Shown here one piece after another: positions 10,459-60,929 of a DNA stretch of 64,000 bases (position 1 is its first letter; every line of letters begins with the position of its first letter). Location: positions 1-64,000 of the IMG/VR virus record IMGVR_UViG_3300037391_000010, one strand, 5' to 3'. The translations under genes and the position numbers were made by a program. Source of the stretch: a virus. The notes under the pieces are model-generated. The model was not told the origin of the DNA, searched no databases, and saw only the letters and a list, made by a program, of their open reading frames with translations.

Positions 10459-10497
10459 TTCCTAACTAAAAGGGCGATTCACTGGGTATAATAGCTC
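10459..10497 (+). promoter_or_regulatory. Early-type promoter TTCCTA-N22-TATAAT (leaderless)
   Basis: TTCCTA 10459-10464, GGG-TATAAT 10487-10492, ATG 5 nt downstream; same geometry at 54045, 55555 and 59229. Confidence 0.7.
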
Positions 10498-26304: not shown

Positions 26305-27969
26305 ATGAAGCCTAGCAACCCACTCCTACAAAAACAAGCTCTCGATGAAACCATGGTCATGTGGAATGACCCTGATTACGCGGAGCACCAACATCATTCC
26401 GATCCCGGTTACACCACTCAAAACGGCAAGGATTACGCGGGTCGCGGCACCACTGAAGTCGAAGAGGGTGCGCTTCAAGACGGCATCCCAGCGAACCTAT
26501 TGTCCGTTGAACTCGGTAAGACAGGCAAGACCGCCGACAACGACGATGACTTCTATCGCGAGTTGGAGCAAGAGGGACAGCAGGATCGGGAACTTCACGA
26601 AGAGGCGCAGCCTGCTGAATATGATGAGGCACTAAACCGTGCTCTGACAGCACTTGATGTGCTCGCGAGGATTCCTTCGAGTCAAGACATCCAAGGCTGT
26701 GCTCAGATGACTGCGGCAGACTTACGCCAGTTCGCTGAGGAATACAAAACTGGCAAGGCGCGTCGATTCTCAAGCGATGATAACCCCCACGTCACCACGA
26801 TGCCCAGTGCCCCAGCCCCAGTCGATCCCAGTGACGCAACGTTCTTCAAGGAGAGTGATCCTATGCCTAATCAATTCTCACCCGCCGAAGAGAAAATCAA
26901 TGCCGCTGCCGCAGGTAGTGGCTTTCACTATGGAGCCCGCGTTACGGACGGAACCACGCTATGGTTCAAGGGGAAAGATGAACGTTTGTCGTATGATCCA
27001 AAGACTGGGAATGTCACACACCTAAAGAACGGGAAAGTTGTATCGGAATGTCCTCTCGATCAACTCTCAAAGATCAAATCCTCCGCTGAAGAGTTTCACA
27101 CAACTTTGAAGAAGCAACTCGGTCAGGACAAAGAGGCCGCTATCCGCCCATCCCCACATGCCGTGTTTGAAAATAAAGTCGATGATGCTACTGGGAAACA
27201 GCCCGTGGCACCCGATGAACCCTCTGATGATGAAGTGATGAAAGCTAAGATGACCCTCGAAAACGCCGGGGTAGGCGATCAGATTGGTGTCAACGCTGCG
27301 GAGGAATCGAGCGAAACTCTTCCCGATGATTGGCCCGAAGGTTGGCACATGTACGACTCGAAGACTGGGGATGAGATCAAAAAGAAATCCGCCCCGAAAG
27401 AAGCGGCTACCACCAAAACTTATGGTACGGGTACTCCTCCGGGCGGCACGCCTAACGACCCAAGTATCGATATTGAAGACGAGGAAGACGACAAAACGGC
27501 GACTACAAAGACTGCTTTGGTCGGCATTCATGAGACGCCGAAATTCCTCCCGCCCCGCGACGATGTGCGTCGGCACCTCGATGAACAAGTGCAGGATGAG
27601 GTGATGGAAGGCGTGATGGATGGTGTTAAGGACGATAAGGTCGCCGCTTCGGACGAGCAGGCAAACGAATTCTACTTGGATAAAGTTCACAGCATGAAGG
27701 CCGAAGCCAAGGAAGCGTTCATGAGTGACGGTGCCATGCAGCAAGAGGCTCAGGATGGGGGCATGAGCATGGAAGACCTGTGGAAAGAGGTCGGTGGGGC
27801 TTTCACCGAAAACTACTACATCTCGGCCTATTCCAAGCAAGGATCGATTGAAGTCTATGAGGGACTCAAGTGCCCTAACTGTAAGAGTACGAAGGGGAAA
27901 CCCGTCGATGACGGTGCGAATGATGGGGTAAGCTTGCAGGAATGCCTTACCTGTGGGAGCTTTTACTAA
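26305..27969 (+). CDS. Acidic modular head-associated protein with K-x-A motifs and a C-terminal Zn ribbon
   Basis: KQAL, KTAD, KEAA x2, KSAP, KTAT, KTAL, KVAA; C-terminal CPNC...CLTC. Confidence 0.6.
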   Translation: MKPSNPLLQKQALDETMVMWNDPDYAEHQHHSDPGYTTQNGKDYAGRGTTEVEEGALQDGIPANLLSVELGKTGKTADNDDDFYRELEQEGQQDRELHEEAQPAEYDEALNRALTALDVLARIPSSQDIQGCAQMTAADLRQFAEEYKTGKARRFSSDDNPHVTTMPSAPAPVDPSDATFFKESDPMPNQFSPAEEKINAAAAGSGFHYGARVTDGTTLWFKGKDERLSYDPKTGNVTHLKNGKVVSECPLDQLSKIKSSAEEFHTTLKKQLGQDKEAAIRPSPHAVFENKVDDATGKQPVAPDEPSDDEVMKAKMTLENAGVGDQIGVNAAEESSETLPDDWPEGWHMYDSKTGDEIKKKSAPKEAATTKTYGTGTPPGGTPNDPSIDIEDEEDDKTATTKTALVGIHETPKFLPPRDDVRRHLDEQVQDEVMEGVMDGVKDDKVAASDEQANEFYLDKVHSMKAEAKEAFMSDGAMQQEAQDGGMSMEDLWKEVGGAFTENYYISAYSKQGSIEVYEGLKCPNCKSTKGKPVDDGANDGVSLQECLTCGSFY

Positions 27970-27995
27970 CTACAGCCCTCTTAAATAGGAACTCT

Positions 27996-28898
27996 ATGCC
28001 TTTTACGAAGATAGCCAACGCGACTTTGCAGGAACCAGTTATCGCCCCTGAGGACTGGATCAAGCTGCACGGAAAGCACGTGTTTGGGCACAAGTCCGCC
28101 TCGGGCACCGCTGCCGCGCAGACCTTCCGCAAGTCGGCTGACACATCCAAATATCTGTTGTCGCACTGCACCATCATGGCGTCCGTCATGGTCGAGGCCG
28201 ACCCATACGATTACCTCATCAAGCCGGAATGTGCACACCTCGTTAACAACAACGATGACGCATGGACGAACGAAGTTCTGAAGCTCAGCCACAGCAGTTT
28301 CGTCGGTGCTTTCAACTTCGTAGAGCACTTCCAGAATTCTAAGTACGCGAAGGGTCATATCCTCGATGCCATTCTCCGCAAGATCAATTTGAGCGGCGAT
28401 GGCGGTGTGTGGGTCTATTTCTGCGATATCCTTGTCGCCACTGATCTCGGACACGAGAAGCTGATTAACGACATCCGCAGCGAGAAGGTGAAGTACCTTT
28501 CGATGGGCTGCGTGACTGACCTCGTAATTTGCAGCTATTGCGGTGCCCGCGTAACCGATCAAAACACGTACTGCAACCACCTGTCGTACCAGAAGGGCAT
28601 GTTCCTTACGGATGACGACGGCATTGCTCGTCGCGTGGCTGAGCTTTGCGGACACAAGACAATGGAAAATGGCGGTGTGAAGTTTGTGGAAGCGAGTTGG
28701 GTTGCTACTCCCGCTTTCCCCGGTGCCGCGAAGCGCAATACCGTGGCCGAAGAGTGGGTCGGGCCTCGCACCAAGTACACCAAGTCATCGGCTGCTGGCA
28801 AGATGGCAAAAATTGCCAGTGGAAATGATGAATTCGAAACCCTTGATTTAGGTGATGCTTTAATGAGCGCGGACCTTCACGGGAGACTAATACGCTAA
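27996..28898 (+). CDS. Prohead (capsid maturation) protease with Zn-finger insertion
   Basis: N.N.D.W...L...F.G..NFVEH, GHILDA, LSMGC (candidate catalytic Ser), C..C...C.H, F.EASWV..PAF..A; upstream of scaffold and capsid; start moved to ATG 27996. Confidence 0.8.
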   Translation: MPFTKIANATLQEPVIAPEDWIKLHGKHVFGHKSASGTAAAQTFRKSADTSKYLLSHCTIMASVMVEADPYDYLIKPECAHLVNNNDDAWTNEVLKLSHSSFVGAFNFVEHFQNSKYAKGHILDAILRKINLSGDGGVWVYFCDILVATDLGHEKLINDIRSEKVKYLSMGCVTDLVICSYCGARVTDQNTYCNHLSYQKGMFLTDDDGIARRVAELCGHKTMENGGVKFVEASWVATPAFPGAAKRNTVAEEWVGPRTKYTKSSAAGKMAKIASGNDEFETLDLGDALMSADLHGRLIR

Positions 28899-32730: not shown

Positions 32731-33446
32731 ACACCACAAAATTTCTTTCGTTTTTCCAGTTATACACCGTGGATCGATTGACGCCATAGAGTTCAACAAA
32801 CTCAGCGACAGTCCCTTCCCATGTTAACCAGACTTTGTACAATCCGCCGTAATGTAGGCAGAAGCGTCGATGACCGCCGTAGACACCCTTGGCGACTTGC
32901 TTAAATTCTGTGCCGCAATCTGGGCAGGTAAAATCTCTAAGCTTGGAGTTTTCTATTTTGTTGACGGCTGTGGAGAGTTTGCTCATCTTGTTACGACGGT
33001 CATCATTCCAACTTGCCGCTATTTTTGCGCGTTGAGTAGCGGGCTTGGGTTTACCCTTGAATAGCAGACTGGTGGTCTCTCTTTGCCGTTTCGTTGAAAC
33101 TCTTCCCAATGCTTTTATGCGTAATTTTTCACGTATTTCCGGCGTTGCTGGTACGCCATCCCCGCCTGCCGTCATGTTGTAACCATCGGGCGACAGGGTT
33201 TTAAGAACTAAAATCCATAACTGTTCAAGCCGATTGAGTTCTTCGGTTGTGGTTGCTTTCGCTAATTGCTGCACGTGGAAATTTTCGGGGCCGTGTTTGC
33301 GAAGAGCGCGGTACAGGTACTCTTGATGGCGCTTTGGTTGTTTTGCGTTCTTCAGGTGTTCACGCCATCTTCCTCGAATGGTCTTTTCGGTTTTGCCGAT
33401 GTACATCTTCCCCGTCAACCAAATTGGTTACCAGATAGACAAACAT
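32696..33446 (-). pseudogene. GIY-YIG homing endonuclease with a single-base frameshift near the 5' end
   Basis: ATG 33446 with GAGAGG RBS encodes MFVYLVTNLVDG; KMYIGKT...RW..H...E..WI...GYN.T.GG plus NUMOD3-like/HTH tail is one base out of frame (extra base in 33410-33420). Confidence 0.75.
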
Positions 33447-34215: not shown

Positions 34216-35175
34216 ATGGCAAACCTTTCTCGTACACAACAGCAGACGGCTATGCTCGGTCAGTTACTCAAGACCGCTGGTGGTCGTCAGAAACTTGCGG
34301 CTTCGTTGGGACCATCCCTCCGTCGTCGTCGTGACTATATGAGCATTGCTCGCAAGGCTCTTATGGTTGAAACTCTTCCCGATGGCGCTCTGCCCATCTA
34401 CGATAAGGAATTCGATGTAAGCGCGATGACTGTGGGCTCGACCCCCGGCTCGTCCTTCGTTGAAGCCTTTGTGGTAGGTGAAGAAGGCGGCGACATCGTG
34501 CGCGTCACCAAGCCAAAGCGCGTCACGGTTCCGACGTTTGAAATCGTGTGCAACCCGATGATTCCGATCACGCAGATCAAGGAACGTCGTTTCGATCTCG
34601 TCGCTCGTTCACTCAACCTTGCAAAGGCTGAAGTAGGCGCAGCGGAAGATGGTTACGTGTTCAACCTGTTTGACGGCGTTGCGGCAGGCGCAGTCGGCCA
34701 TCCACCCAACGATCCGGTTTACAACCCCGACATCGCCATCAATGCTCCCATCGACATCAACTCGTTGGCAGACGGCTTTGGTCAGGTTGCACGCCACGAT
34801 CTGTCGGTTGCTTTCATCTTCTTCAATCCGCGTGACTACACGGACCTGTTGAAGTGGACGCAGCAAAACATCGACCGTGAAACACAGCGCAAGCTGTTGA
34901 AGACGGGCGTCATGGGCTATCTATGGGGCGCAACGCTCCTCCAGTCTCGTAAGGTCGGCTACGGCTGCATCTACATTCTGGCGGACGCTGAGTTCCTCGG
35001 CGTAATCCCAGAACGTATTCCGTTGACCGTGATGTCTGCCGACCGTCCTGACCTCCGTCAGATCGGTTTCAGCATCTTCGAGAACTTGGGCTTCTTGGTG
35101 TTCAACCCATCAGGTGTCCAGCGTCTCACAGTCAATGGCCGCTTCAACGCGACCGCCAACTACGGCGAGAACTAA
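34216..35175 (+). CDS. Major capsid protein (HK97-fold)
   Basis: R.KLA.S....LR...DY..IARK.L.V..LP.GA.P.YDK, V.VP.FEI..NP.I....IK.R.F, G..G.LWGA....S..V..G; follows protease, scaffold and decoration genes. Confidence 0.85.
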   Translation: MANLSRTQQQTAMLGQLLKTAGGRQKLAASLGPSLRRRRDYMSIARKALMVETLPDGALPIYDKEFDVSAMTVGSTPGSSFVEAFVVGEEGGDIVRVTKPKRVTVPTFEIVCNPMIPITQIKERRFDLVARSLNLAKAEVGAAEDGYVFNLFDGVAAGAVGHPPNDPVYNPDIAINAPIDINSLADGFGQVARHDLSVAFIFFNPRDYTDLLKWTQQNIDRETQRKLLKTGVMGYLWGATLLQSRKVGYGCIYILADAEFLGVIPERIPLTVMSADRPDLRQIGFSIFENLGFLVFNPSGVQRLTVNGRFNATANYGEN

Positions 35176-43276: not shown

Positions 43277-44005
43277 ATGAGCATCACATACGGACCTAAG
43301 ATTCCGCAGTTATTCGTCAGCGCAGCCCTCGGTGACCAATACTACACCGCTGGCGAAGCGTTACTGCGTGGGTTGCAGGCACTCGTTGAGCCGAACGTCA
43401 TCAGTGTCGGTGCATTGAGTGCACCGCCTCCGACTCCAAGTGACGGCGACTCTTACATCGTTGGAGCCAGCCCCACTGGTGCATGGGCGGGTCAAGCCAA
43501 CAATTTCGCCTATTGGTCAACCGACAATCCCTCGGCTCCGAACGGAGAATGGGAATTCTACACGCCATTAAACGGCTGGATCGTCGGTAGCGGTGGAGCG
43601 ATTTACACCTTTAACGGAACAGCTTGGAGTGCCCCGATCACGGGGGGACGTGTAGCAGCTATTCCTTATGTGATTGATGGCGGCGGCTCCGTACCGTCCA
43701 CTGGATTGAAGGGACAACTCAGCATCCCAGCGGGCTGCACGATCACGGGCTGGGTTCTCACCTCAGACGTGAGCGGCTCCGCTGTCGTGGACGTTCTCCG
43801 CTCGACCTACGCCGCATTTCCAACCACCGCATCCATCGCTGGCACAGATATGCCCACACTCTCATCCGCACAAAAGAACCAAGATTTGGTATTAACCGGA
43901 TGGGGGTCTACGGCTATCAATGCAGGGGATGAGATTCAGTTCAACCTCGTTTCCGTCACTACGGTCACACGGCTCAACATCACTTTGAATGTGACCATCC
44001 CGTAA
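43277..44005 (+). CDS. DUF2793-containing virion protein
   Basis: PP.TP.DGD.YIV...PTGAWAGQ...A.W......W.F..P..GW pattern. Confidence 0.75.
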   Translation: MSITYGPKIPQLFVSAALGDQYYTAGEALLRGLQALVEPNVISVGALSAPPPTPSDGDSYIVGASPTGAWAGQANNFAYWSTDNPSAPNGEWEFYTPLNGWIVGSGGAIYTFNGTAWSAPITGGRVAAIPYVIDGGGSVPSTGLKGQLSIPAGCTITGWVLTSDVSGSAVVDVLRSTYAAFPTTASIAGTDMPTLSSAQKNQDLVLTGWGSTAINAGDEIQFNLVSVTTVTRLNITLNVTIP

Positions 44006-44020
44006 GGCTGGAAAATAATC

Positions 44021-46189
44021 ATGGGTGCAACTTTAGTAGCGACAGCGGCAGCATCATCGCTTGTAGAGTTTGGCAGTCCAGCGACCACCGCTGCGCGGAA
44101 CACCACTGGTGCCAATTTTATTTGCGTGGCGTGCAACAACTATGATTCTGAAGCCTCTGAACTAACACTCACGGACACCATCGGTGGGAATCCAAGCGGC
44201 AACGTCTGGACATTGGTTCCCTACGACCCGACAAACCCCGGCGTTGCGGGCTTCCCCTTCTTCTACTACATGTACAATCCAGCCGTTGGTGCAAACCATG
44301 TGTTCAGCCTTGCGAGCACGGGCAACGCCGATCCCAACCTCTGCATGATGGCATTCTCTGGCGTGCCGCTCGGGTCGATTTCAGCCGACTACACTACTAC
44401 CCCCATTTCCGCTAGTGAAAGCGTCTCCACCCTGATCTTAGATTTTGCGACGACGGGAATACCCGTGCAAACGCAGTCGGTGAGTTTTGGAGGAGGCGGT
44501 ATAGGGACAAGCGGTAGCGGGACTTTCGCCAACCCCATACCAGTCGGACAGTCGATAGTTGTCGTGTTCCAAAATAACACCTTCTTCTCGACTTCAGGTG
44601 TGATGACGCTGACGGACTCATCGGGCAACGTTTACAGCCATTACACCGCAGCTTTCGGAACAAACCCTTGTTCGCAGGTAGACGTTTTCGTCGCATTCAA
44701 CGTTCCAGCTACATCGTCCCTCACGCTGAATTGGACGGCTCAAAACAGTATCGGCAATGGTGATGGAGAAGCGTGGACGGTGACGAACTTGACATCGTTA
44801 AATAGCTTCCTGTCAAACACACAGGCACCGAGCACCGGTCCGCTTACCAGTCCCACAATCACCCTCGCGTCATATCCAGCGGAGGATTGGCTCCTGCTTG
44901 CTACCAGCTACCCTTACGCGAGTCCAGTTGACAATTGGTCAAACATGGACGTGGGGGCTGTTGGCGGTGTGTTTCAACAAGTCACAACTTTTGCAGAGCG
45001 AGATGAAAGTTGGTGGGCGGTAGGCGGCAATTACGGCCCGATGCCATCCATCACCCCCGACTCAGGGCTTGGATTTCAGGTGCCAAATAACGCTGGCGAC
45101 CTCATCATTACCGCTGCGGGCATCGGCGACATTCAAGGAGATGTAGTTGCCGTCGATAGCGGCGTAACCATCGCGGGTAGCAGCATCCCATACAGCATCG
45201 TCGGGATCACGGCTGGCTATCTCGTCGCCGCACAAGGGGCGGTATCTTGCACTGGGAACATCACCATCGACACGGTTCCAAGCCCGCCGACCGCCGTTGT
45301 CAGTGTGGTAAATACAGCGCCGTTTGTAGCGCAACAAACATGTACGGGATTCGCTGCGATGACCTTGAACGGCCTCTTCACCACAAACAACGTAGCGACT
45401 ATCGCCGTGGCAAATTCCGCAGGTTTTACCCCCGGCATGGTCGTCTACCTTAACGGGTTTACGGATGCGACCATATCGAGCTACTTGAACGACCGCTTTG
45501 GGAACGTGGTCTCGGTTGGTTCTGGCGTTATATCCGTGGTAATGCCGCTCGGACTCGCAAATTATTCAACCCTAACCGCAGGTCCGGGAACTATCAGTCA
45601 GGTTGTCAAACTTCAAGGATTCACAAGCACGGGCACCAACAATCTTGACGGCGTGAACAATACCGATAAGACTTACGTCATCTCCATAGCCCCTAACGTT
45701 CTAACGCTCGCTGGCGGCTTTAGCGGTGTGGTGAGCGGTGCGTACACAGGGCAGGCCGATGGAACGGTTGGCATACCAGTAGACCCTGTTTGGTCGTGGG
45801 GTACTCCCTCATTGACGCCTGCGGGGAATCTTCCGACAGCGGGCTATCCCTTTCAGTCAATCCTTAGCAGCATGGTCAACGACGATTTACACGGGGTTTC
45901 CGAGCCTCCTTTGGGCGGCTACTCGGGAACATTCACTTTCATCTTCGGTGCCGCGCCCGGAAATATCAGCAACACACCGCCCGGGGCAGGCCCGTGGCCT
46001 CCCAGTGGCATCACGATCCAATGGCAGGGGACAGACGCGCAGGGATACCCACAGGTCGGCACTATGAACATACCGCAGTCCGCGCTTATAACGGGGACTT
46101 ACGGGCCGTTTATCATTCCCGCTGGCGCTTTTCACTACGGCATTGAAGCGGTTTCGACATCAGCAACGAATCGACGGCTGGTATGGTGA
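44021..46189 (+). CDS. Large beta-rich virion/fibre-associated protein
   Basis: 722 aa, T/G/S/V-rich; LTD..GN.(W/Y) modules. Confidence 0.6.
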   Translation: MGATLVATAAASSLVEFGSPATTAARNTTGANFICVACNNYDSEASELTLTDTIGGNPSGNVWTLVPYDPTNPGVAGFPFFYYMYNPAVGANHVFSLASTGNADPNLCMMAFSGVPLGSISADYTTTPISASESVSTLILDFATTGIPVQTQSVSFGGGGIGTSGSGTFANPIPVGQSIVVVFQNNTFFSTSGVMTLTDSSGNVYSHYTAAFGTNPCSQVDVFVAFNVPATSSLTLNWTAQNSIGNGDGEAWTVTNLTSLNSFLSNTQAPSTGPLTSPTITLASYPAEDWLLLATSYPYASPVDNWSNMDVGAVGGVFQQVTTFAERDESWWAVGGNYGPMPSITPDSGLGFQVPNNAGDLIITAAGIGDIQGDVVAVDSGVTIAGSSIPYSIVGITAGYLVAAQGAVSCTGNITIDTVPSPPTAVVSVVNTAPFVAQQTCTGFAAMTLNGLFTTNNVATIAVANSAGFTPGMVVYLNGFTDATISSYLNDRFGNVVSVGSGVISVVMPLGLANYSTLTAGPGTISQVVKLQGFTSTGTNNLDGVNNTDKTYVISIAPNVLTLAGGFSGVVSGAYTGQADGTVGIPVDPVWSWGTPSLTPAGNLPTAGYPFQSILSSMVNDDLHGVSEPPLGGYSGTFTFIFGAAPGNISNTPPGAGPWPPSGITIQWQGTDAQGYPQVGTMNIPQSALITGTYGPFIIPAGAFHYGIEAVSTSATNRRLVW

Positions 46190-46394
46190 TTTTCCCATCG
46201 CCACAATTGATAGCGAGAGGGGTTTGCATCGCTCCAATGCTGTTCGGGTTTTAAGTGTTGTAGTATCATAGTTTTACGGATCGAGCGACTGTTTTCTGGC
46301 CGCTACATCATCGGCAAGTGGGGAATCACACTACCGAAACCTCAATATGAGTGTGCTTTTAGACGCTTATCCCTAGCTAGGAGAAACGAACATC

Positions 46395-46628
46395 ATGTCC
46401 AAGAAAATCGCAGCAGCAGACGCAACGGCAATGAACTCGCTCTACAAGGGTGAACTCGGTCGCCTCGGCCTCAAGGTCGCACAGAAGGACGCAAAGGACT
46501 CAGCCGCAGGGCAGTCCCACGATCCTCAGGCTTTCGAGGATCACGAAGATTACATGAAGACCCTTGAGTCGGTCCTGAAGGAAGATGAAAAGACCGCAGG
46601 CGATCCCAACGACCCAATCACCGACTAA
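46395..46628 (+). CDS. Small head-associated protein with K-x-A motifs
   Basis: AGGAG RBS; KIAA, KVAQ, KTAG; late motif upstream. Confidence 0.65.
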   Translation: MSKKIAAADATAMNSLYKGELGRLGLKVAQKDAKDSAAGQSHDPQAFEDHEDYMKTLESVLKEDEKTAGDPNDPITD

Positions 46629-46637
46629 GGAGGAAAG

Positions 46638-49600
46638 ATGAAGCTGGACGCCACACAAGCGGCGGCTGCCAAGCTTTCCCACCTAATCGAGCCCGGGCGT
46701 ACCGTCTATTCCACGGATGGTCGCGCCTACAGGGTCTTGTCAAAGATCGCCTCGGGGGGCTCCCTGAGCTTCCGTCTGGCAAATCTTCAGGGACAGCCTG
46801 TTCCAACCCCCGCAAACTTTACCCCGATCAGCGGGGCTTGGATGCGTTTCGCGTCCTTCCTGAAGTACGCCTACAACAAAGACATCACCGCAATCGTCAA
46901 CGAGATGATTACGCAGGCGGGTTTACCTATCGACCCCAAAATGGACTGGGCTGCGTACCTGACGAAGACTTACTCCGCAAATCTCAGTTCTGTAACCACC
47001 GACCCCGACATTCAGGACGAAGTGATCTATCGGACGGTCGTCTATCTTTTGTTTGAACGAAAGAACAAGAACGGCAAAAAGGTTCTGGAGAACTTTGCCG
47101 AGAAGCTGAAGAACTTCGATGTAAAAACCCAGAAGAAGCCGCTCGCAGAACAAGTCAGCGACTACCTGAAGGGCACCTTCCTTTACTACGCCAAGGATCA
47201 TGCCAAGCATGATGCGATTGCCCTGATGCGCCCCGAAGAGATGAGCATGGAGCAGCCCGGCGAAGAAGGTGAGACCTACAACATCCTCGACACCGAAGAG
47301 CACGCTACCGCTCCGGGCGTTGGACAATCCGAATCCGACCGCGACATCGATCAGTTCATCGCTCAGTTCCAAGAGTGGGTGAAAGGCAAGGAAACTCCGA
47401 AGTCCGCCCCTAACTACGCCGCCCTGCTCAAGATTTTCTGGGATCAATCCCAACAGACCGAGAGCGGAGAAGTTAAGATCAGTGATTTGACGCAAGAGTG
47501 GATTCGCCGCACAGGTTTGAGTTTCGACTCTCTGAAGCAGTACCGAGACAAGATCGGCGGCTTGCTTCGTGATTTCGTTTATGAGAACAAGGCTCAACTG
47601 GGCAACTCTTACAAGCTCGCCGACCTGTTGCAGCACATGTTCCCACCGCCTCCGAAGGCGAAGGCACGTCCAGCCAAGGCTTCGTCCTTCAAGGCCGCAG
47701 GGTGTATCGCATCCGAATACTGCCCGCAGTGCGGCAACGATGAGAATGGCTGCCATTGCCCGAACAAAGCGGATTTGCTGGATGGCGAGACACGAGGCGA
47801 TAAGACGGCCTCGGACCATCACCGCAAGCAAGTGTGCAAGTGTGGTAGCGTCCAGACCTGCCGCTGCTCGGCTCCGAAGATCGCTTTCAATGTGAACTCC
47901 TGCTCTAACTGTCGTACCGCTGCTGAGAAGCCGAAGTGTCCGCACTGTGGCTCCGACGATTACGGCCTGATGCCCACGGATTTCGAGACCGCCAAGTGTA
48001 ACGCCTGCGGCAAGAACTGGGAGCACGGCATCGTCAAGGGTATCAATGACCCGAAGGAAGCCGCTTACGGACACGCCGACAGACCGATCAATGAGGAACA
48101 GACGAAACTGGAACAGGACGTAGATCGTTTCAGCAAGGAACTCAAGAAGTTCCCCAAAGGGCCAACGGGCATGACGCCTGACGCTACCAAGGCTACTCCC
48201 GAGTGGCAGGCAGCAAAGCGCAACTACGATCAGGCTTTCCAAGCCCTGCGGAATTACAACTCCAAGCACACGGCGGCTGACCTCGGTCGATGCTCCTGTG
48301 AATGGGAAGAATGTCCGTTGGGTCACAAAGCTGGTGGGTGTCCGAACCCCGCAGCCCACATGCTTGAGATTTATGGGTACAAGACCCGCTACTGCCAGCC
48401 ATGCACCGATGCAACCATCGAGTACATCCGCTTGGAACAGGGTACGGGCGATGCGGACAACACGGTTAAGATTCTATCCTCTGTAGACACGGAGCATGGC
48501 GTTCACCCATCTCAGCCTGAGGATCACAAGGCTGCCGCTCCGTACTGCGACGGCTGCGACCGCCCGAAGGCGAACTGTATCTGTGAGGGCTGTGAGTGCC
48601 CAGAGAACAAGAACGCGAGCAAGTACGGCGACAAGATCAAGAAGATGGAAGCTCGTCGCGGTGAGTCCATCGAGTCAACGCTTAAGAAGGCGGACGGCGA
48701 AATGGGCGAAGCACCAGAGAAGCCCACTCTTCAGAAGCTCCCCAGCGAGGGCGGCTTCCACCCTATCGCGGCAGGCGAGATTCAATACACCGCTCCCGGA
48801 TTACAGGTGGTACTCGCCGAGGACTGGTTTATTTATGTGACGGATGAGACCACAGAGCACATGTGGGTTTACAATACGGAGATGTGGTACGAGTGGGGAG
48901 AGATTCCAAACGCTTTCGGTGAGGACACAACGAAGCCCCAGCCCACGGTCGAAGCGATGATCCCGTATGCCAAGGGGCACACACCCGAGCCTCTCATGGA
49001 TGACAATAAGAAGCAGATGACGCTTCAAGAATTTGAAGCAAGCAACGGCGACAACTGGGCTGATCCCGGTTTTGACAAAGAGGGGATGATCGGTCACGAT
49101 TTCATGAATGCCGATCAAGATGCGATTCGCCCCCGCATTACGCCCGGAGACACTGGACGCCTGCCTCATGCTCGCACGCAGGGGTCGCTTAAAGAATCTG
49201 CGGAAGGCGGGCTACAACACGCAAATTTGCCACGTTTTGTCGTAATGAACGGCGGCTATCCGATGGAAGTGCACAAAGAGAATTGCCGCGACATGAACAT
49301 GCCGAAGTATCGTCATGCGCCCAAGGATTGGGTTCTCACTGGTAACACAGTTGATGAAGCAGTGGAAGTGGCGGCGGGAGAGTTGAACAGCCAGTTCGAT
49401 GAGCCGTATGACACGGAAGACCTCTTCCGTGTGATGCCTTGCTGCCGTAAGAAGACCGCTGCGGAACTCGCTGGTCGTGGCGGCGGGGAAGACGATGTAC
49501 GCGGAGCAGGTGATCTGTGGCGTGAAGAGTTCTATCAAGAGGGCGGTTCAGCGGGGGCTCCTCCAAAGATTGCCACATCGCTGAAAACATTGCCATGCTG

Positions 49601-52600
49601 CGGGTCGGTATCAAGTCATCACAAACCCGGTTGCAAAGTGTACAATGATAATTTCACCAAGACCTTGACCACGTTGTATCCAGAGAAGTTTGGGAGTGGT
49701 GATATGTTTGTAGCCGCAACGAAAATTGCCGCCGATCAGTGGAAGGTCACCATCCGCGATCCTAAAGGAAAGCAACGAGAGGAAAAGGTTAGGGGTCAGG
49801 ATTACAGCGCAGCCGAACGTGCAGTGACAAAGAAGATGAAGGACAAAGAACAACTCGTTAGCATGACGGTTGCCAATAAAACTGCGGCTCCTGCGGCAGC
49901 GGCACCAGCACCAGCCGCCCGACCAGCGCAAGCACCCCAGACAGTGGTAGCTCCACCAGCAGGCACGGCTGTCGCTCTGCCGGGTCAACAACCGACGACA
50001 GAAGACGAGAAACCGATGCGGAAGACAGTTGTACCCGAGCTTCCCGGAAAGAAGTGGCACATGACCAGCAAAACAGCAAGCATTCTCGAAGACGCCTTCC
50101 AGTATTTCATGGAAGGTAAGAAGGAGGGAGGGCTGGCGGATGTGTTCAACGAACATTACACCCGCACTGGCAAGGGCGAAGACAAGTACATCGCCTGCTC
50201 CAAGCTCATGATGGATTTTGAGTACGCTTTCCAGCGTCAAGAGGACGGCTCCCTAAGCGACGAAGACAGTCTCCGTGAGGACGCGGAGAACGCATTGCGT
50301 GAGATCGTTGGCGATGACCCGAACTACAGCGAGAGCGCAGCACCAGCGACAAAAGGGGCACTCAAGTCTGGACAGAACACTCCCGAAGTAGAGGCTGAAG
50401 TTGCTCAGTTGGCGCAAACTCATCCGCTGACTGAGGTTCACGAGAATTGCAACCCAGCCTATGAGCACGGGCAGTGGTGGATCATCTGCGGCCCATGCGG
50501 TGCTTCGTGGGCGGTTGAAGATGCTACGGGCGGACAGAGCTACAACGGTCTCGATCTGGAAGAGGTTGATGCGGGCGATGGTTCCTGCCAAGAGAATCTC
50601 CATGAGTCCTCTACGGTTCAAGTTCCGGGCATGGCTGGACTGCAATCAGAGGCAAAGGAAGTAACGAGTTCGGTGGAGAAGAAAGCATGGATTGAGGATG
50701 AAGGTGAAGTAGAAGAGGAATCGGTTCAGGATCGTTTGGAATACCTCAGGGGCGAACTCCGCGCCGAGCGGATCAGTCAGGGGGAGTTGATGGAATTACA
50801 GGGTCTTGCCGACTACATTGACCCCGGCGATGTGGAATTGTTGGAGGCCGCTGGTGTCGAAGAAGTTATATCTCAGCCCGATGTACCCATTGAGACACCT
50901 GAGTTCGGTGAAGCCGATAAAACCCGTCTGAGGGGTCTTGGTGTAATTGGAAAGAAAAAGAAGGCGTTCGAGCCCGGAGCCAATAGTGGTATCCGTGGTT
51001 CCAACGACGGCACGTACATCTATCAGGCGGACGTATGGTGCGAGAATTGTGCTACGGAGATCGCCGCCACGTTGGATGCGGAAGGCAAGACGCCGCCTAA
51101 CGTGATGGATGAGGCTTCGTATGATTCGGACAACTACCCGAAAGGGCCGTTCTTCGAAGAGGAATCCGATGCACCCGAGCATTGTTCGGGCTGCAAGATT
51201 TTCCTTGAAAACCCACTGACGGCTGATGGCACAGAGTACATGACACAGATGGTTGATAAAGCCGTCGCCGAAGGTCGCGGCGAAGAGCCACACATTAAGG
51301 AATGGATGGACTTTTACGGGTATCGTCCTGAGGAGAAAAACATGATAGAGTCATCCGATGCATCGGACAAAATCAACGCAATGCCGCAGCGTGGCAGGCC
51401 AAAGAGCCCGTCGCAGTTGGGTCTCCAAGAAAAATCAGAACTCGATCTGCGTAATGAGGGAATCCCTTTGAGAAGCAGCGAGGACAAAGTGGCGGCTACT
51501 CCACAGCCCACGTCTGGCGAAGACGAGGGGTTCAACGTCAAGGTCGTCTACAACAAGTACGGCATCACGCTGGAGCCAACCAACAACCTGCTCAGCGATG
51601 TGCAGGGCATCGGCGAATCGATCCCGAAGCCGAGCATCTGGGAACTGATGGAGGACTTCTTCACCAATGGCTGGGAGATGGTCAACCCTGAAGACATCGG
51701 GGCATTGACATCTGGCGAGATCATGAGTGACCAAGACGGCAACGTTTACTGGCACGAGCGTTATCAGATCGAGGACATGGTTGAAGAGTTGATGAACGGC
51801 AACAAGGTCAACTTGCAATACGGCGGCAACCTGTTCGAGATGGATGAGGGCAGCGAGATCGCCCCGCCTGCCGAACCCGATCCGAATCAGATGGAGCTTC
51901 CGCTCCAGTCTTCCAAGAAGGAGGCCACGGGCGAGATGAGTCAGGCTGAGCTTGACGAGAATGGTCGCGAAGAGTGGCCGATGCATTACAACATCGCTGA
52001 CGCTCTTGGGGCTGAAGTAAAGCCGTTCGACCAGTATCAAGGGCCGTATGTTCGCGTGCCTGAAGGTCGTCTGTGGGTCACTACTCCCGAAGGAGCGGGC
52101 GATGGGGCGGAACTCATCGTTTGGAACGAGAGCAACCGTAAGTCGAGCGAGCCGTTTATGTGGGATGACGAGAATGCGGCGGTCGATGCTGCTCTCAGCG
52201 TCATGGATAATCCCCCAGCCAACACTTTGCCTTGGGGTGCGGAGCGTGAGGAGCAGTTGAAGAACGGCCCCGACACGTCTGAGGTCGAAGACACGGTTCC
52301 AGCGGAACATCCCGAAGGCTGGACGCCTGAGTTTAGTAAGGGCGACAAGGAGAGTCTGCACGGACTTGGTGTCAAGGGTTCGAAGAAACAGGCGGCACCC
52401 GGCGACGGTGGGCTCCAACGCGACGTACAAAAAGCACAGGGTCTCAAGCCAGAACAGAAAAATTACGACAAGGCTATCGTGAACGCCTATGAAACCCATC
52501 CGTTGGTGGAATTGCTCTGGAATTCCATGAAGCGTGATCCGCAGCACAAGGATCGCGTCCAGACTGGGTACGGCACCAAGACGAAGCAGGGTTTGGTGCT

Positions 52601-52646
52601 GAGTATCGCCCGAATCATGAAAGAGAACCCTGTGTCTGGAGAATAG
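46638..52646 (+). CDS. 2002-aa multi-module (polyvalent) protein, putative protease-processed capsid-cargo polyprotein with a sigma-factor-like module
   Basis: AAGGAGG RBS; about 20 unrelated modules (Zn ribbons, small phage domains) separated by K-x-A-(A/S)-like motifs. Confidence 0.7.
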   Translation: MKLDATQAAAAKLSHLIEPGRTVYSTDGRAYRVLSKIASGGSLSFRLANLQGQPVPTPANFTPISGAWMRFASFLKYAYNKDITAIVNEMITQAGLPIDPKMDWAAYLTKTYSANLSSVTTDPDIQDEVIYRTVVYLLFERKNKNGKKVLENFAEKLKNFDVKTQKKPLAEQVSDYLKGTFLYYAKDHAKHDAIALMRPEEMSMEQPGEEGETYNILDTEEHATAPGVGQSESDRDIDQFIAQFQEWVKGKETPKSAPNYAALLKIFWDQSQQTESGEVKISDLTQEWIRRTGLSFDSLKQYRDKIGGLLRDFVYENKAQLGNSYKLADLLQHMFPPPPKAKARPAKASSFKAAGCIASEYCPQCGNDENGCHCPNKADLLDGETRGDKTASDHHRKQVCKCGSVQTCRCSAPKIAFNVNSCSNCRTAAEKPKCPHCGSDDYGLMPTDFETAKCNACGKNWEHGIVKGINDPKEAAYGHADRPINEEQTKLEQDVDRFSKELKKFPKGPTGMTPDATKATPEWQAAKRNYDQAFQALRNYNSKHTAADLGRCSCEWEECPLGHKAGGCPNPAAHMLEIYGYKTRYCQPCTDATIEYIRLEQGTGDADNTVKILSSVDTEHGVHPSQPEDHKAAAPYCDGCDRPKANCICEGCECPENKNASKYGDKIKKMEARRGESIESTLKKADGEMGEAPEKPTLQKLPSEGGFHPIAAGEIQYTAPGLQVVLAEDWFIYVTDETTEHMWVYNTEMWYEWGEIPNAFGEDTTKPQPTVEAMIPYAKGHTPEPLMDDNKKQMTLQEFEASNGDNWADPGFDKEGMIGHDFMNADQDAIRPRITPGDTGRLPHARTQGSLKESAEGGLQHANLPRFVVMNGGYPMEVHKENCRDMNMPKYRHAPKDWVLTGNTVDEAVEVAAGELNSQFDEPYDTEDLFRVMPCCRKKTAAELAGRGGGEDDVRGAGDLWREEFYQEGGSAGAPPKIATSLKTLPCCGSVSSHHKPGCKVYNDNFTKTLTTLYPEKFGSGDMFVAATKIAADQWKVTIRDPKGKQREEKVRGQDYSAAERAVTKKMKDKEQLVSMTVANKTAAPAAAAPAPAARPAQAPQTVVAPPAGTAVALPGQQPTTEDEKPMRKTVVPELPGKKWHMTSKTASILEDAFQYFMEGKKEGGLADVFNEHYTRTGKGEDKYIACSKLMMDFEYAFQRQEDGSLSDEDSLREDAENALREIVGDDPNYSESAAPATKGALKSGQNTPEVEAEVAQLAQTHPLTEVHENCNPAYEHGQWWIICGPCGASWAVEDATGGQSYNGLDLEEVDAGDGSCQENLHESSTVQVPGMAGLQSEAKEVTSSVEKKAWIEDEGEVEEESVQDRLEYLRGELRAERISQGELMELQGLADYIDPGDVELLEAAGVEEVISQPDVPIETPEFGEADKTRLRGLGVIGKKKKAFEPGANSGIRGSNDGTYIYQADVWCENCATEIAATLDAEGKTPPNVMDEASYDSDNYPKGPFFEEESDAPEHCSGCKIFLENPLTADGTEYMTQMVDKAVAEGRGEEPHIKEWMDFYGYRPEEKNMIESSDASDKINAMPQRGRPKSPSQLGLQEKSELDLRNEGIPLRSSEDKVAATPQPTSGEDEGFNVKVVYNKYGITLEPTNNLLSDVQGIGESIPKPSIWELMEDFFTNGWEMVNPEDIGALTSGEIMSDQDGNVYWHERYQIEDMVEELMNGNKVNLQYGGNLFEMDEGSEIAPPAEPDPNQMELPLQSSKKEATGEMSQAELDENGREEWPMHYNIADALGAEVKPFDQYQGPYVRVPEGRLWVTTPEGAGDGAELIVWNESNRKSSEPFMWDDENAAVDAALSVMDNPPANTLPWGAEREEQLKNGPDTSEVEDTVPAEHPEGWTPEFSKGDKESLHGLGVKGSKKQAAPGDGGLQRDVQKAQGLKPEQKNYDKAIVNAYETHPLVELLWNSMKRDPQHKDRVQTGYGTKTKQGLVLSIARIMKENPVSGE

Positions 52647-52690
52647 TCAGTAAAATTCAACTTTTTGACCCCTTAATAGGTGGAGGAACC

Positions 52691-53752
52691 ATGGCAAACG
52701 TAAAGAAAGCAGATCGTGAGGCAGTTCGCAAGGCTATTGTAGCCCGTCGCGAAGCCCGTAAGACCGAAAAAGTGGCTCAATACGCCAAAATGCGTGAGAC
52801 CGCGAAGTCCCCGGCGAAGTTCGCCAAGGTTCTCGATGAACTCGTAGCAAAGACCGCTCGTCAGGCTGACAGCATGGAAGCCCTCCGTCACAACCTCGGC
52901 CTCGCGAGGGTCGCCAAGGACGCTCCCGCCAAGGTTCGCGTTGCAGCCGCCCAAAAATACGGCAAGAAGTTTATCCGTATCGCCGAAGAGCAGCCCGACA
53001 TTCTGGCTGACGCCCTCCAGCAAGCCTACAAGGGCTTGGATGAGCAGGCAGCGGCCATGGAAATCGCAGCCGAAGCTCTGGGCATTGACCTCGGTGCAAC
53101 TCCCGCTGAGAAGGCATTCACCGACGAAGGCAAGCACGAACTTGAGCTTGGCGAAGACAAGGGCGAAGCCGTAGCCGAAGCTGAAGGTCCTGACTTTGAA
53201 GCGCAGGAAGAGACTGAAGCCGAAGCTGACGCCGAACCCGCAGACAAGCCCGAAGAAGAGAAGGAAGCCGCCGCAGGTTCCGACGCTTTCAGTACCGACC
53301 GCGATCCATCAGGCAACCCCAAGGCACCGCAGAAGGCACAGAGCCCACGGGCTCAAGGCGAAGCTTTCAAGAATTCCGCAGAACAGCCCAAGGGTGTAAC
53401 GCAGGAATTCACCATCGCCCCGCATTCCGAAGGCGCTGAGAAGTTCGTGAAGAACATCCCGCAGGCTCAGGGCAAGGAAGCAGGCAACAAGCTCAGCGCA
53501 ATGAGCAAGAAGGATTTCATTGCTCTGGCGGACGCCATCAAGAATATGAGCGTCGGCCCTGATGAGAAGCGCAACATCGCCGAAGGGTTGTGCAGCACGC
53601 TTCGCGCATCCAACCCACGTTTCATGAAGGAACGCTTCATGGGCTACGTGATGGGCGAGAATGGTCCGAGCGGCGGTGCAGTAAAGCCGATTGGACAGCC
53701 GCGTAAGTCGCGTCCCGCTCCGATCACGACTGCCCCCGCTGAAGGCATGTAA
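52691..53752 (+). CDS. Head-associated protein with K-x-A motifs and an appended small phage domain
   Basis: GGAGG RBS; late motif upstream; DAFSTDRD..GNPKAPQKA..PR motif; KLSA-MSKKDFIALADAI...NPRF..ERF module. Confidence 0.65.
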   Translation: MANVKKADREAVRKAIVARREARKTEKVAQYAKMRETAKSPAKFAKVLDELVAKTARQADSMEALRHNLGLARVAKDAPAKVRVAAAQKYGKKFIRIAEEQPDILADALQQAYKGLDEQAAAMEIAAEALGIDLGATPAEKAFTDEGKHELELGEDKGEAVAEAEGPDFEAQEETEAEADAEPADKPEEEKEAAAGSDAFSTDRDPSGNPKAPQKAQSPRAQGEAFKNSAEQPKGVTQEFTIAPHSEGAEKFVKNIPQAQGKEAGNKLSAMSKKDFIALADAIKNMSVGPDEKRNIAEGLCSTLRASNPRFMKERFMGYVMGENGPSGGAVKPIGQPRKSRPAPITTAPAEGM

Positions 53753-54016: not shown

Positions 54017-54088
54017 TTGAAAACAAACCAAATATAGTCAAAATTTCCTATCGTTTCCGACCCATTTTTGGGTATAATAGGGACATGG
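54017..54088 (+). promoter_or_regulatory. Early promoter repeat, copy 1
   Basis: TTGAAAACAAA..AAATATAGT...TTCCTA-N22-TATAAT-AGGGAC-ATGG, nearly repeated at 55527-55598. Confidence 0.8.
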
Positions 54089-55526: not shown

Positions 55527-55598
55527 TTGAAAACAAAGCAAATATAGTGCTGAATTCCTAGCGATTCGAGCCTCTTTTTGGGTATAATAGGGACATGG
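55527..55598 (+). promoter_or_regulatory. Early promoter repeat, copy 2
   Basis: TTGAAAACAAA..AAATATAGT...TTCCTA-N22-TATAAT-AGGGAC-ATGG. Confidence 0.8.
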
Positions 55599-59216: not shown

Positions 59217-59268
59217 AAATAGTTCAGATTCCTAGCGATTTGGGCTCGGTGTGGGGTATAATGTAAGT

Positions 59269-60185: not shown

Positions 60186-60929
60186 CTACCGATTTGCCCG
60201 ACTTACGAACATGTGGTCAAAATCAGGGTCGGTGATCTTAACCCTAAAGTCCCCCAGTATCGCAGGATCGGTGCGGTAGATGTTCCCGAGCTTCTGAACT
60301 TTCCGCTTCGAAAATCCTGTCCCGCTGGGGTTTGCCTTGTCAATGAGGGAATGGATGAACGCTCCCAACGCCTTCTCTTCTGGGTCCTTGGATTCCAGCA
60401 GTTGCTTGCTCGACCGACTCATCGCACGGCGGATGTCAGGGCGGTGGAGCTTGTGAATCTCGGCTACCCGCTGGAAGCTGCGGGTCTTGATGTACAGGTC
60501 GATGATCGTACTTAGGGGCACGCTCTTGATGCTGTTCTCCAGCTTCGCCTGCACCAGCACATTCTTCATCTTGTCCTCGGTGAATTCCTCCCCATACAGA
60601 ATGAACGCACACAGCACTTTGACCGCCATGCGGATGCGGAAGGAGCACACCGTCTGCGTGCTGCGGTGGATGATCGCCAGAGTGTTCTGGGTCTTGCTCA
60701 GCAGATAGTAGCTCAGCAGGAGTTCCTGATCCTCCTTCTTCAGGAGACGCAAAATCTTCAGGAACATTGGGAAATTCTCCTGAATGTAGGTGAGGATTTT
60801 CTGGTCTTCTTTTTTCTTGGGGTCGGACTCAGCACTGAGAAGTGTTTGGCCTTCAAGGGCTTCTTCGTCAGTCAGGAGCATGGCGCGGGCAGAAGTGATT
60901 GAATCGAAATACGGAGTGTTTTCAGACAT
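60186..60929 (-). CDS. Sigma-70 region-4-like double-HTH transcription regulator
   Basis: LRLLKKEDQELLLSYYLLSKTQNTLA.IH..TQ...S.RI..AVK.L resembles sigma region 4; second HTH (SFQRVAEIHKLHRPDIRRAM). Confidence 0.6.
   Translation of the reverse strand: MSENTPYFDSITSARAMLLTDEEALEGQTLLSAESDPKKKEDQKILTYIQENFPMFLKILRLLKKEDQELLLSYYLLSKTQNTLAIIHRSTQTVCSFRIRMAVKVLCAFILYGEEFTEDKMKNVLVQAKLENSIKSVPLSTIIDLYIKTRSFQRVAEIHKLHRPDIRRAMSRSSKQLLESKDPEEKALGAFIHSLIDKANPSGTGFSKRKVQKLGNIYRTDPAILGDFRVKITDPDFDHMFVSRANR

What the first reader, a model, noticed from the sequence alone, without database searches (positions are those of the whole stretch)
46872..47640. Sigma-factor-like module embedded at the front of the virion polyprotein
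Seen: between KYA and KAAG lies a ~260-aa helical module with the order and flavour of sigma-70 regions. DIQDEVIYRTVVYLL...DYLKGTFLYYAKDH is region-2-like, EMSMEQPGEEGETYNILDT resembles the region 3.2 SLD.P..EDGE..L.D segment, and KISDLTQEWIRRTGLSFDSLKQYRDKIGGLLRDF resembles the region 4 HTH (GLS.ERV.Q....L..LR). Inference: a sigma-like factor is packaged, cut out and injected to redirect host RNA polymerase at the start of infection, possibly to the TTCCTA-N22-TATAAT promoters. This would be an alternative to the virion RNA polymerases of N4 and phiKZ.
Basis: inference. Interest (0 to 1): 0.85.

Follow-up and report, generated by a model that had tools for sequence, protein, structure and literature searches.

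The report
Sigma-like head of giant phage protein
The first 335 residues of a 2002-residue protein, in a soil jumbo phage related to Tunturiibacter phage Tunturi 5, form a conserved and undescribed domain whose layout recalls a bacterial sigma factor, but no test reached significance and nothing shows that it is packaged or injected.

Summary
The quoted peptides are real. They lie in ORF 46638-52646 (2002 aa), in the virion-gene block of a 155-kb fragment of a jumbo phage. Its closest cultured relative is Tunturi 5, which infects Acidobacteriota.

The module is not residues 79-335. It is one conserved unit, residues 1-335, always N-terminal in 130+ relatives:
- a small Tudor/SH3-like barrel;
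- helical domain A;
- a conserved acidic disordered linker;
- helical domain B with a helix-turn-helix.

A conserved motif (basic run, then PAKASS-L-x-A) follows the unit. After that come shuffled mini-domains separated by an enriched K-x-A-[A/S] motif.

Sigma likeness is a recurring but weak signal. Protein-language-model neighbours are sigma-70/ECF clusters (0.94). Fold matches to sigma2, sigma4 and whole ECF sigmas run in the same N-to-C order but score only Z 4-6. hhalign gives P=0.005 and 0.055. No Pfam, PHROG or NCBIfam sigma model matches, and Foldseek finds nothing below E=0.1.

The proposed N-terminal cut (KYA) lies inside a confident helix. The C-terminal cut is plausible, because a head maturation protease is encoded nearby. 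Packaging, injection and RNA polymerase binding are untested.

Verdict: a real new domain family; the sigma reading is possible (about 1 in 3) but not shown. The scan noted only this same stretch before, not other DNA.

The parts
46638..52646 (+). 2002-aa ORF (P0001). It has a constant N-terminal unit followed by a long, variable, Cys-rich and acidic string of mini-domains.
   Evidence: ORF list and translation. Strong Shine-Dalgarno sequence before the ATG. 12 long homologues. C-terminal modules recur in other family members in a different order.
46695..46823 (+). Residues 20-62: small beta-barrel (Tudor/SH3-like).
   Evidence: AF2 strands 22-25, 30-39, 42-48, pLDDT about 90. Weak matches to RapA Tudor 8t0l_F (Z 4.4, rmsd 2.6, 52 aa, 23% id) and to PcrA/UvrD Tudor domains (Z 3.6-4.0), and to PafBC 9fnd_X (Z 4.8). 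All ten rows of the ESM-Atlas shape search are RapA, Mfd, CarD or UvrD families, at TM 0.18-0.25.
46833..47228 (+). Residues 66-197: helical domain A (the 'region 2-like' part). It holds the most conserved family motif, AGLPxDxxMxW (P97 and W104 invariant), and the helix with DEAIH..II..L.ER.
   Evidence: AF2 helices. Conservation. hhalign against ECF sigma2: P=0.0052, probability 6.9%, residues 106-155 against RpoE 23-66. Fold matches: SigJ sigma2 5xe7_B, Z 5.1, rmsd 3.0, 64 aa; sigma2 4ki2_A, Z 3.7.
47229..47318 (+). Residues 198-227: disordered acidic linker with a conserved short motif (G211, N215, LDTEE 217-221).
   Evidence: pLDDT below 55 in both models. Invariant or near-invariant columns in A1 and in the A2 consensus.
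47319..47639 (+). Residues 228-334: helical domain B with a helix-turn-helix (W288, T292-G293, K300 conserved). This is the 'region 4-like' part.
   Evidence: AF2 helices 228-251, 257-273, 281-292, 296-316. Best fold matches are winged-helix/HTH proteins: Fur, Z 6.8, rmsd 2.7, 72 aa. Sigma4 domains follow: SigR r4 5fgm_A, Z 5.1, rmsd 2.9, 63 of 65 aa; Tth sigmaA 340-423, Z 5.2, rmsd 4.1. hhalign against sigma4: P=0.055.
47640..47705 (+). Residues 335-356: Pro/Lys-rich linker with the family-wide motif PA(K/H/M)AS(S/L)-(L/F)-x-x-A. It is a candidate processing site that ends the module.
   Evidence: The motif is seen by eye in most of 64 diverse members about 17 residues after the domain. A strict pattern is present in 29 of 63 members, against 1% of other 60-aa windows. 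It is also present in Tunturi 5 gp345.
27942..28898 (+). Head maturation protease gene. It is the candidate enzyme for processing, but no link to the motif is shown.
   Evidence: phrog_18299, E 2.2e-14.
34216..35175 (+). Major head protein. It anchors the virion-gene block in which the ORF lies.
   Evidence: phrog_2522, E 3.5e-42. 71% identical to the Tunturi 5 major head protein. Gene order is conserved in 33 viral loci.

Best explanation
Residues 1-335 of the 2002-aa protein are one conserved three-part domain: a Tudor-like barrel, helical domain A, an acidic linker and an HTH domain B. This domain defines a previously undescribed family found in Tunturi-5-like jumbo phages of soil Acidobacteriota.

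Most likely it binds the transcription machinery or promoter DNA, and it is built like an ECF-type sigma factor. Domain A would sit where sigma2 sits, the conserved acidic linker would play the part of region 3.2, and domain B would be a sigma4-like HTH. The extra N-terminal barrel is of the kind that RapA, UvrD, Mfd and CarD use to hold RNA polymerase.

The domain is the constant head of a modular protein encoded at the end of the virion-gene block. A conserved motif separates it from shuffled cargo modules and is probably cut by the phage's head maturation protease.

Shown: the domain, its boundaries, its conservation, the motif and the gene context. Inferred: RNA polymerase or DNA binding, cleavage, and any delivery with the virion.
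For: Family and boundaries:
- 123 representatives at 50% identity match residues about 5-355, always at their N-terminus, with C-terminal parts of 0 to about 1800 aa.
- 101 of 132 members carry the whole unit, and the rest are short fragments.

Sigma-like signals:
- Nearest named language-model clusters are sigma-70/ECF/HTH at 0.92-0.94. Twelve of 30 are viral clusters with PF04542.
- VIA alignments in the same N-to-C order: ECF sigL 6dv9_F, 162 of 174 aa; phiEco32 sigma 9m7y_F, 171 of 208; Mtb sigH 6kop_F, 145 of 159. All at Z 4.6-5.6.
- In the wide search, only sigma and TFIIB rows cover domain A.
- Sigma chains recur in three Foldseek lists.
- hhalign P=0.0052 (A against sigma2) and 0.055 (B against sigma4), on the expected regions, against P 0.04-0.4 for control pairings.

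Barrel: resembles RNA-polymerase-binding Tudor domains.

Processing:
- Conserved post-domain motif.
- K-x-A-[AS] occurs 11 times against 1.9 expected, reached in 0 of 2000 shuffles.
- A protease gene is present.

Need for a factor: no RNA polymerase gene and no recognisable sigma in the 155-kb record.
Against: - No Sigma70_r2, r3 or r4 hit in this protein or in 33 relatives.
- The family profile finds no sigma among PDB sequences at E <= 10.
- HH probabilities are only 0.2-7%.
- Foldseek best E is 0.11 to 0.29.
- All Z values (<= 6.8) lie inside the range the tool gives for chance matches of helical proteins.
- Domain B matches Fur, RPC62, DnaD and MCM winged helices at least as well as sigma4. 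TFIIB and cyclins score like sigma.
- The most conserved motif (GLPxDxxMxW) has no sigma counterpart.
- Language-model shared features (143-148) are below the 170 typical of true family members.
- The barrel gave no usable language-model hit and no profile similarity to CarD/Mfd RID, although that test was poorly built.
- The record is only about 48% of the genome, so a phage polymerase or sigma may lie elsewhere.
Confidence: 0.35

Rival explanations
1. The constant N-terminal domain is a virion-incorporation or DNA-riding 'pilot' domain. It would play the role of the MuF/SPP1-gp7 domain that carries variable C-terminal cargo into phage heads. The barrel and the winged-helix/HTH would bind the phage DNA or the portal so that the variable cargo modules are packaged and ejected. 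It would have nothing to do with RNA polymerase.
For: - The gene always lies at the end of the head-tail-fibre block.
- A constant head is joined to shuffled, variable C-terminal modules.
- Domain B's top fold matches are generic DNA-binding winged helices: Fur Z 6.8, DnaD, MCM-WH.
- The K-x-A-[AS] motif is shared with head-module proteins and with a second giant ORF.
- A head protease gene is present.
Against: - Stand-alone copies of about 360 aa sit in a small integrated element with Prim-Pol and a serine recombinase and no capsid genes in view.
- No similarity to MuF/gp7 or to any PHROG virion family.
- There are no virion proteomics.
Confidence: 0.28
2. Exactly: a true sigma-70 homologue comprising residues 79-335, cut out at KYA and KAAG, packaged and injected, and directing host polymerase to the TTCCTA-N22-TATAAT sites.
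For: - The weak sigma-like signals listed above.
- The TTCCTA-N22-(GGG)TATAAT motif is real. It occurs 5 times at exact spacing, with only 26 and 22 single hexamers in 155 kb, and it is conserved in close relatives.
Against: - KYA lies inside a confidently folded helix, K76 is not conserved, and the conserved unit begins at residue 1.
- No sigma profile match.
- A 22-nt spacer puts the upstream hexamer about 5 bp beyond a sigma-70-type -35 element (established knowledge of sigma-70 promoters).
- There is no evidence of packaging or injection.
Confidence: 0.06
3. The sigma likeness is a chance resemblance of helical bundles. The domain would have a structural or assembly role in the virion, such as a fibre or baseplate accessory or a scaffold-like part.
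For: - All structural and profile scores are within noise by the tools' own calibration.
- The gene sits next to tail fibre genes.
- Phold labelled the Tunturi 5 homologue 'virion structural protein'.
Against: - Several weak lines of evidence (language-model features, 3Di and distance-matrix alignments of the AF2 models, profile-profile alignment) point to the same family and the same residue pairings. These lines are not fully independent of one another.
- A conserved HTH with a T-G turn and a conserved acidic motif in a disordered linker are unusual for a purely structural part.
- Stand-alone copies occur in a non-structural context.
Confidence: 0.22

Closest known systems
ECF (group 4) sigma factors, including phage ones such as phiEco32 gp36 (PDB 9m7y_F; PMC12276001)
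   Same: Two helical domains joined by a flexible linker, in the order three-helix sigma2-like core, then four-helix HTH. Alignments cover most of an ECF sigma in the same N-to-C order as the module (145-171 residues, Z 4.6-5.6). The helix DxxDE..I matches the region 2.1-2.2 path in hhalign.
   Different: No Pfam sigma match. There is a roughly 30-residue insertion in domain A and an extra barrel plus two helices at the N-terminus. The linker carries its own conserved acidic motif. The whole unit is fused to up to 1700 residues of variable modules. The statistics are not significant.
Tudor-like RNA-polymerase-interacting domains of RapA, UvrD/PcrA, Mfd and CarD
   Same: A small five-stranded barrel of similar size at the start of the protein. 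All ten ESM-Atlas shape rows are these families. RapA 8t0l_F gives Z 4.4, rmsd 2.6, 23% identity over 52 aa.
   Different: TM only 0.18-0.38. No PF02559 or PF18339 hit. SH3/Tudor/Sm barrels are very common folds. No contact with the beta subunit was tested.
Packaged, ejected phage proteins with a constant part and a processed or variable part (N4 virion RNA polymerase, T4 internal proteins, MuF-domain polymorphic toxins, phiKZ inner-body proteins)
   Same: A very large gene in the virion block. A constant terminal domain plus variable modules. An enriched short motif and a head protease gene are consistent with maturation cleavage.
   Different: No sequence or fold relation to any of them. No proteomic evidence of packaging. 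The cleavage motif (K-x-A-[AS]) is unlike the known T4 (L/I-x-E) or phiKZ (S/A/G-x-E) sites (from established knowledge).
Tunturiibacter phage Tunturi 5 gp345 (PP885688.1; PMC11924767)
   Same: A full member of the family: my family HMM gives E 4.8e-77 over residues 7-389. It has the same gene position after the fibres, and the same following gene is 55% identical.
   Different: 667 aa instead of 2002. About 30% identity. Annotated only as 'virion structural protein', apparently by computation.

Membership tests
Sigma-70 family | Match to Sigma70_r2 (PF04542) at or near the gathering score | tested here: not met
   No hit at E <= 1 in the protein or the module. None in 34 family members at E <= 0.01. 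None in the 155-kb record at E <= 1, while the control genomes matched.
Sigma-70 family | Match to Sigma70_r4 / r4_2 (PF04545, PF08281) | tested here: not met
   My own ECF HMM (41 sequences) finds nothing in the record at E <= 10.
Sigma-70 family | Profile-profile similarity to ECF sigma over regions 2 and 4 | tested here: inconclusive
   hhalign: domain A against sigma2, P 0.0052, probability 6.9%; domain B against sigma4, P 0.055, probability 1%. The whole-unit comparison gives 2.6% at most. The paths are in the same N-to-C order and on the expected regions. Control pairings give P 0.04-0.4.
Sigma-70 family | Sigma2 and sigma4 folds in N-to-C order joined by a linker | tested here: inconclusive
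   VIA Z 3.7-5.9 to sigma2, sigma4 and whole sigmas. Foldseek E 0.35-3. Winged-helix, cyclin and TFIIB folds score the same or higher.
Sigma-70 family | Binds core RNA polymerase (beta' clamp helices, beta flap) and confers promoter specificity | not testable with these tools
CarD/TRCF/RapA/UvrD Tudor-like RNA-polymerase-interacting domains | Profile match (PF02559, PF18337/PF18339), or a clear fold match with the beta-binding surface | tested here: inconclusive
   No Pfam hit. Fold Z 3.6-4.8. Atlas rows are all of these families but at TM <= 0.38. hhalign P >= 0.095, with a roughly built RID profile.
Packaged and ejected virion proteins | Encoded within the structural gene block | tested here: met
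   The gene lies after the major head and fibre genes in the window and in 33 related loci and Tunturi 5.
Packaged and ejected virion proteins | Found in purified virions, and processed by the head protease | not testable with these tools
   Indirect evidence only: the conserved post-domain motif, K-x-A-[AS] enrichment and a protease gene. The Tunturi 5 paper mentions no mass spectrometry and describes Phold/HHpred annotation.

The most novel reading that the evidence does not exclude
The constant head of a protease-processed cargo polyprotein is a sigma-like, RNA-polymerase-binding factor. After cleavage at the conserved PAKASS-L-x-A motif it would travel in the capsid and enter the cell with the DNA, reprogramming host RNA polymerase before any phage gene is expressed. 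This would be a third route to early transcription, beside virion RNA polymerases (N4, phiKZ) and plain use of host sigma-70.
Probability: 0.1. Interest if true: 0.85.

Novelty: new variant of a known kind. Interest (0 to 1): 0.5.

Why it matters
No transcription strategy is known for phages of Acidobacteriota, a dominant soil phylum. No polymerase or recognisable sigma gene was found in the half of this jumbo phage genome that is held.

A conserved domain family of 130+ members, matching no Pfam, PHROG or NCBIfam family searched here, heads giant modular proteins in the virion-gene block. If it binds RNA polymerase, it would be a new way for a phage to bring or make its own initiation factor. 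If it is instead a cargo-loading domain, it defines a new polymorphic cargo system of soil jumbo phages.

Either way it can be tested. A cultured pair exists, Tunturi 5 and Tunturiibacter psychrotolerans X4BP1, and its gp345 is a full member of the family.

Tried and rejected
- Megablast of 44000-53000 against GenBank phages: no match.
- PDB sequence searches with family profiles A1 and A2: only insignificant zinc-ribbon and other rows, no sigma.
- The sub-threshold Pfam TAF1_subA hit (21.5 bits against a cut-off of 31.8) is seen in 1 of 34 members, so I treat it as spurious.
- A search with RpoE, meant to build a diverse sigma profile, returned only close RpoE orthologues. I built the ECF profile from E. 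coli and Acidobacteriota loci instead.
- A profile search of the large protein collection with A3 gave only 5 family members and no link to sigma.
- Internal duplication (domain A against domain B): none, P 0.074.
- CarD-like reading of barrel plus domain A: Foldseek lists CarD 4l5g_B at E 0.32, but it is not among the top VIA rows and hhalign shows nothing.
- Language-model search of residues 1-100: no usable hit.
- The family was found in 1 of 301 sampled Acidobacteriota genomes. That copy is next to an IS21 insertion, so prophage context gave little.
- Covariation of the promoter motif with the HTH could not be assessed. The motif is seen only in close relatives within the 21-kb loci held.
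- The 247-aa neighbour looks HTH-rich by eye, but hhalign against sigma gives P about 0.1.
Full report
WHAT THE WINDOW IS. The window is the first 64 kb of a 155,417-bp IMG/VR virus record that CheckV rates 48% complete. That implies a genome of roughly 300 kb. The major head protein (34216-35175, phrog_2522) is 71% identical to that of Tunturiibacter phage Tunturi 5. Tunturi 5 is a 309-kb myovirus of Acidobacteriota isolated from Arctic tundra soil. The head protein is also 35% identical to that of Bacillus phage G (PMC11924767). The finding lies in ORF 46638-52646 (+), 2002 aa. The ORF is preceded by a strong ribosome-binding site. It sits after fibre-like genes (DUF2793, Ice_binding).

THE OBSERVATION. 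The quoted peptides are present, and 46872-47640 equals residues 79-335. A phmmer scan of 1.8 billion representatives found 123 relatives. Almost all of them match query residues about 5-355 at their own N-terminus. Their total lengths run from about 360 to 2100 aa (long forms). With a family HMM, 101 of 132 members carry the complete unit, and the remainder are short fragments. The unit therefore starts at residue 1, not 79.

AlphaFold2 on a 34-sequence alignment gave pLDDT 83.4 and pTM 0.67. The model shows:
- a small beta-barrel (residues 20-62);
- helical domain A (66-197);
- a disordered acidic linker (198-227);
- helical domain B (228-334);
- a disordered Pro/Lys/Ala tail.

A second model of residues 100-340 agrees (pLDDT 85.8).

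IS IT A SIGMA FACTOR? SEQUENCE LEVEL. Pfam, PHROGs and NCBIfam give no sigma hit for the protein, the module or 33 relatives. PF04542 and PF04545 are not found anywhere in the record, although the control genomes matched. Family profiles find no sigma among PDB sequences even at E 10.

I built an ECF sigma profile of 41 sequences from E. coli and Acidobacteriota (loci of unpublished G025 excluded). I compared it with a 110-sequence family profile using hhalign. For the whole unit the probabilities were 2.6%, 1.5% and 0.2%. Domain by domain:
- Domain A against sigma2 gave P 0.0052, probability 6.9%, pairing residues 106-155 with RpoE 23-66 (regions 2.1-2.2).
- Domain B against sigma4 gave P 0.055, pairing residues 285-315 with RpoE 156-186 (the HTH).

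About 16 other pairings (crossed domains, domain A against B, CarD/Mfd, the 247-aa neighbour) gave P 0.04-0.4. So there is a small excess over background, but it is far from proof.

IS IT A SIGMA FACTOR? FOLD LEVEL. Foldseek found nothing below E 0.1 in PDB or BFVD. Sigma chains (sigmaS, sigma32, sigmaA, two phage sigmas) do recur among the weak rows.

VIA-align against 48,161 representatives gave top Z values of only 5.6 and 6.8, inside the range the tool describes as common for helical proteins. For domain B, the best rows are winged-helix/HTH proteins (Fur Z 6.8, RPC62, DnaD, MCM-WH). Sigma4 domains come close behind: SigR region 4 at Z 5.1, rmsd 2.9 A, 63 of 65 residues, and Thermus sigmaA 340-423 at Z 5.2.

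For domain A, the only rows that cover it are sigma factors and TFIIB (SigJ sigma2 at Z 5.1, rmsd 3.0, 64 aa). Whole ECF sigmas align in the same N-to-C order over nearly their full length: sigL 162 of 174, phiEco32 gp36 171 of 208, sigH 145 of 159.

A language-model feature search of residues 66-340 returned only sigma-70/ECF/HTH clusters at 0.92-0.94. The shared-feature counts (143-148) are below those typical of true family members.

The N-terminal barrel resembles Tudor domains that hold RNA polymerase. RapA gives Z 4.4 at 23% identity, and UvrD/PcrA give Z 3.6-4.0. All ten ESM-Atlas shape rows are RapA, Mfd, CarD or UvrD families. These matches are again weak.

My reading is that the architecture is compatible with a divergent ECF-like sigma carrying an extra polymerase-binding barrel. 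Several weak lines of evidence, which are not fully independent, agree on this. Membership of the sigma-70 family is not met at sequence level, and the fold evidence is inconclusive.

WHAT SURROUNDS THE MODULE. About 17 residues after the domain, very divergent members share a basic run followed by PA(K/H/M)AS(S/L)-(L/F)-x-x-A. A strict pattern is present in 29 of 63 members, against 1% of other windows. It also occurs in the stand-alone 365-aa form and in Tunturi 5 gp345.

The rest of the protein is a string of modules that recur in other members in a different order. The motif K-x-A-[AS] occurs 11 times against 1.9 expected, a count reached in 0 of 2000 shuffles. It is similarly enriched in most long relatives. 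It is also enriched in a second giant ORF of 5484 aa, and mildly in three ORFs (554, 318 and 731 aa) next to the head genes.

A head maturation protease gene lies at 27942-28898. This fits, but does not prove, release of the module by maturation cleavage at its C-terminal side.

Gene order is conserved in 33 viral loci and in Tunturi 5: head genes, fibres, this gene, a 353-aa gene, then a 247-aa gene. Stand-alone copies occur in a small integrated element with Prim-Pol and a serine recombinase. One Acidobacteriota MAG also carries a copy.

WHAT WAS NOT SHOWN. Packaging, injection and RNA polymerase binding have no evidence. The 'virion structural protein' label of Tunturi 5 gp345 appears to come from structure-based annotation (Phold), and the paper mentions no mass spectrometry. 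No phage RNA polymerase was found, but half the genome is missing.

The TTCCTA-N22-TATAAT sites are real and conserved in close relatives. Their 22-nt spacing is not that of a sigma-70-type promoter, and nothing links them to this module.

VERDICT. This is a real, conserved and previously undescribed domain family. Its boundaries are wrong at the N-terminal side, sigma membership is not met, and the packaged-and-injected scenario is untested.

My estimates of probability:
- about 0.35 that it is a sigma-like transcription-machinery-binding module;
- about 0.28 that it is a cargo-loading or DNA-riding domain;
- about 0.22 that it is a structural part with a chance likeness;

Noticed in passing
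window 10459-10492, 54045-54078, 55555-55588, 59229-59262 (+); record 149515 (-): TTCCTAnC...N...TTGGGTATAAT occurs five times with an exact 22-nt spacer, while the whole 155-kb record has only 26 TTCCTA and 22 TATAAT hexamers. The motif is conserved in close relatives (L013, L015, L020, L021). It is likely a phage promoter class with an upstream element about 5 bp beyond a normal -35 position.
   Followed up: partly
window 60186-60929 (-): A 247-aa protein is conserved next to the family gene in relatives. It is 55% identical to Tunturi 5 gp346, which is annotated 'exonuclease'. By eye it has two HTH-like stretches, and it gives a sub-threshold Phage_antitermQ hit (E 0.0012). It may be a transcription regulator rather than a nuclease. 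hhalign against sigma is not significant.
   Followed up: partly
record G000 112810-129261 (+), outside the window: A second giant ORF of 5484 aa is also enriched in K-x-A-[AS] (15 against 5.0 expected, P 2e-4).
   Followed up: no
window 32696-33418 (-); L014-L017, L029, L034, L036, L038 just upstream of the family gene: A GIY-YIG homing endonuclease (phrog_314, E 5.5e-25). In several relatives, paralogous copies are inserted directly upstream of the giant gene.
   Followed up: partly
window 47700-52646 (+): The C-terminal mini-domains of the giant protein recur in other family members at different positions and in a different order. For example, residues 1440-1566 appear at 575-692 of P0028 and at 715-816 of P0013. 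This indicates module shuffling.
   Followed up: partly
L012 5463-7795: In the Acidobacteriota MAG OY969886.1, the stand-alone homologue lies directly downstream of an IS21-type insertion (Mu-transposase C-terminal domain plus IstB).
   Followed up: no
window 5450-7447 and 8999-10438 (+): The phage encodes a UvrD/REP-type helicase and a nicotinamide/nicotinate phosphoribosyltransferase (NAMPT_N plus NAPRTase).
   Followed up: no
window 40435-43269 (+) and 61027-62865 (-): Two fibre-like proteins carry Ice_binding (PF11999) domains, which fits a cold-soil origin.
   Followed up: no
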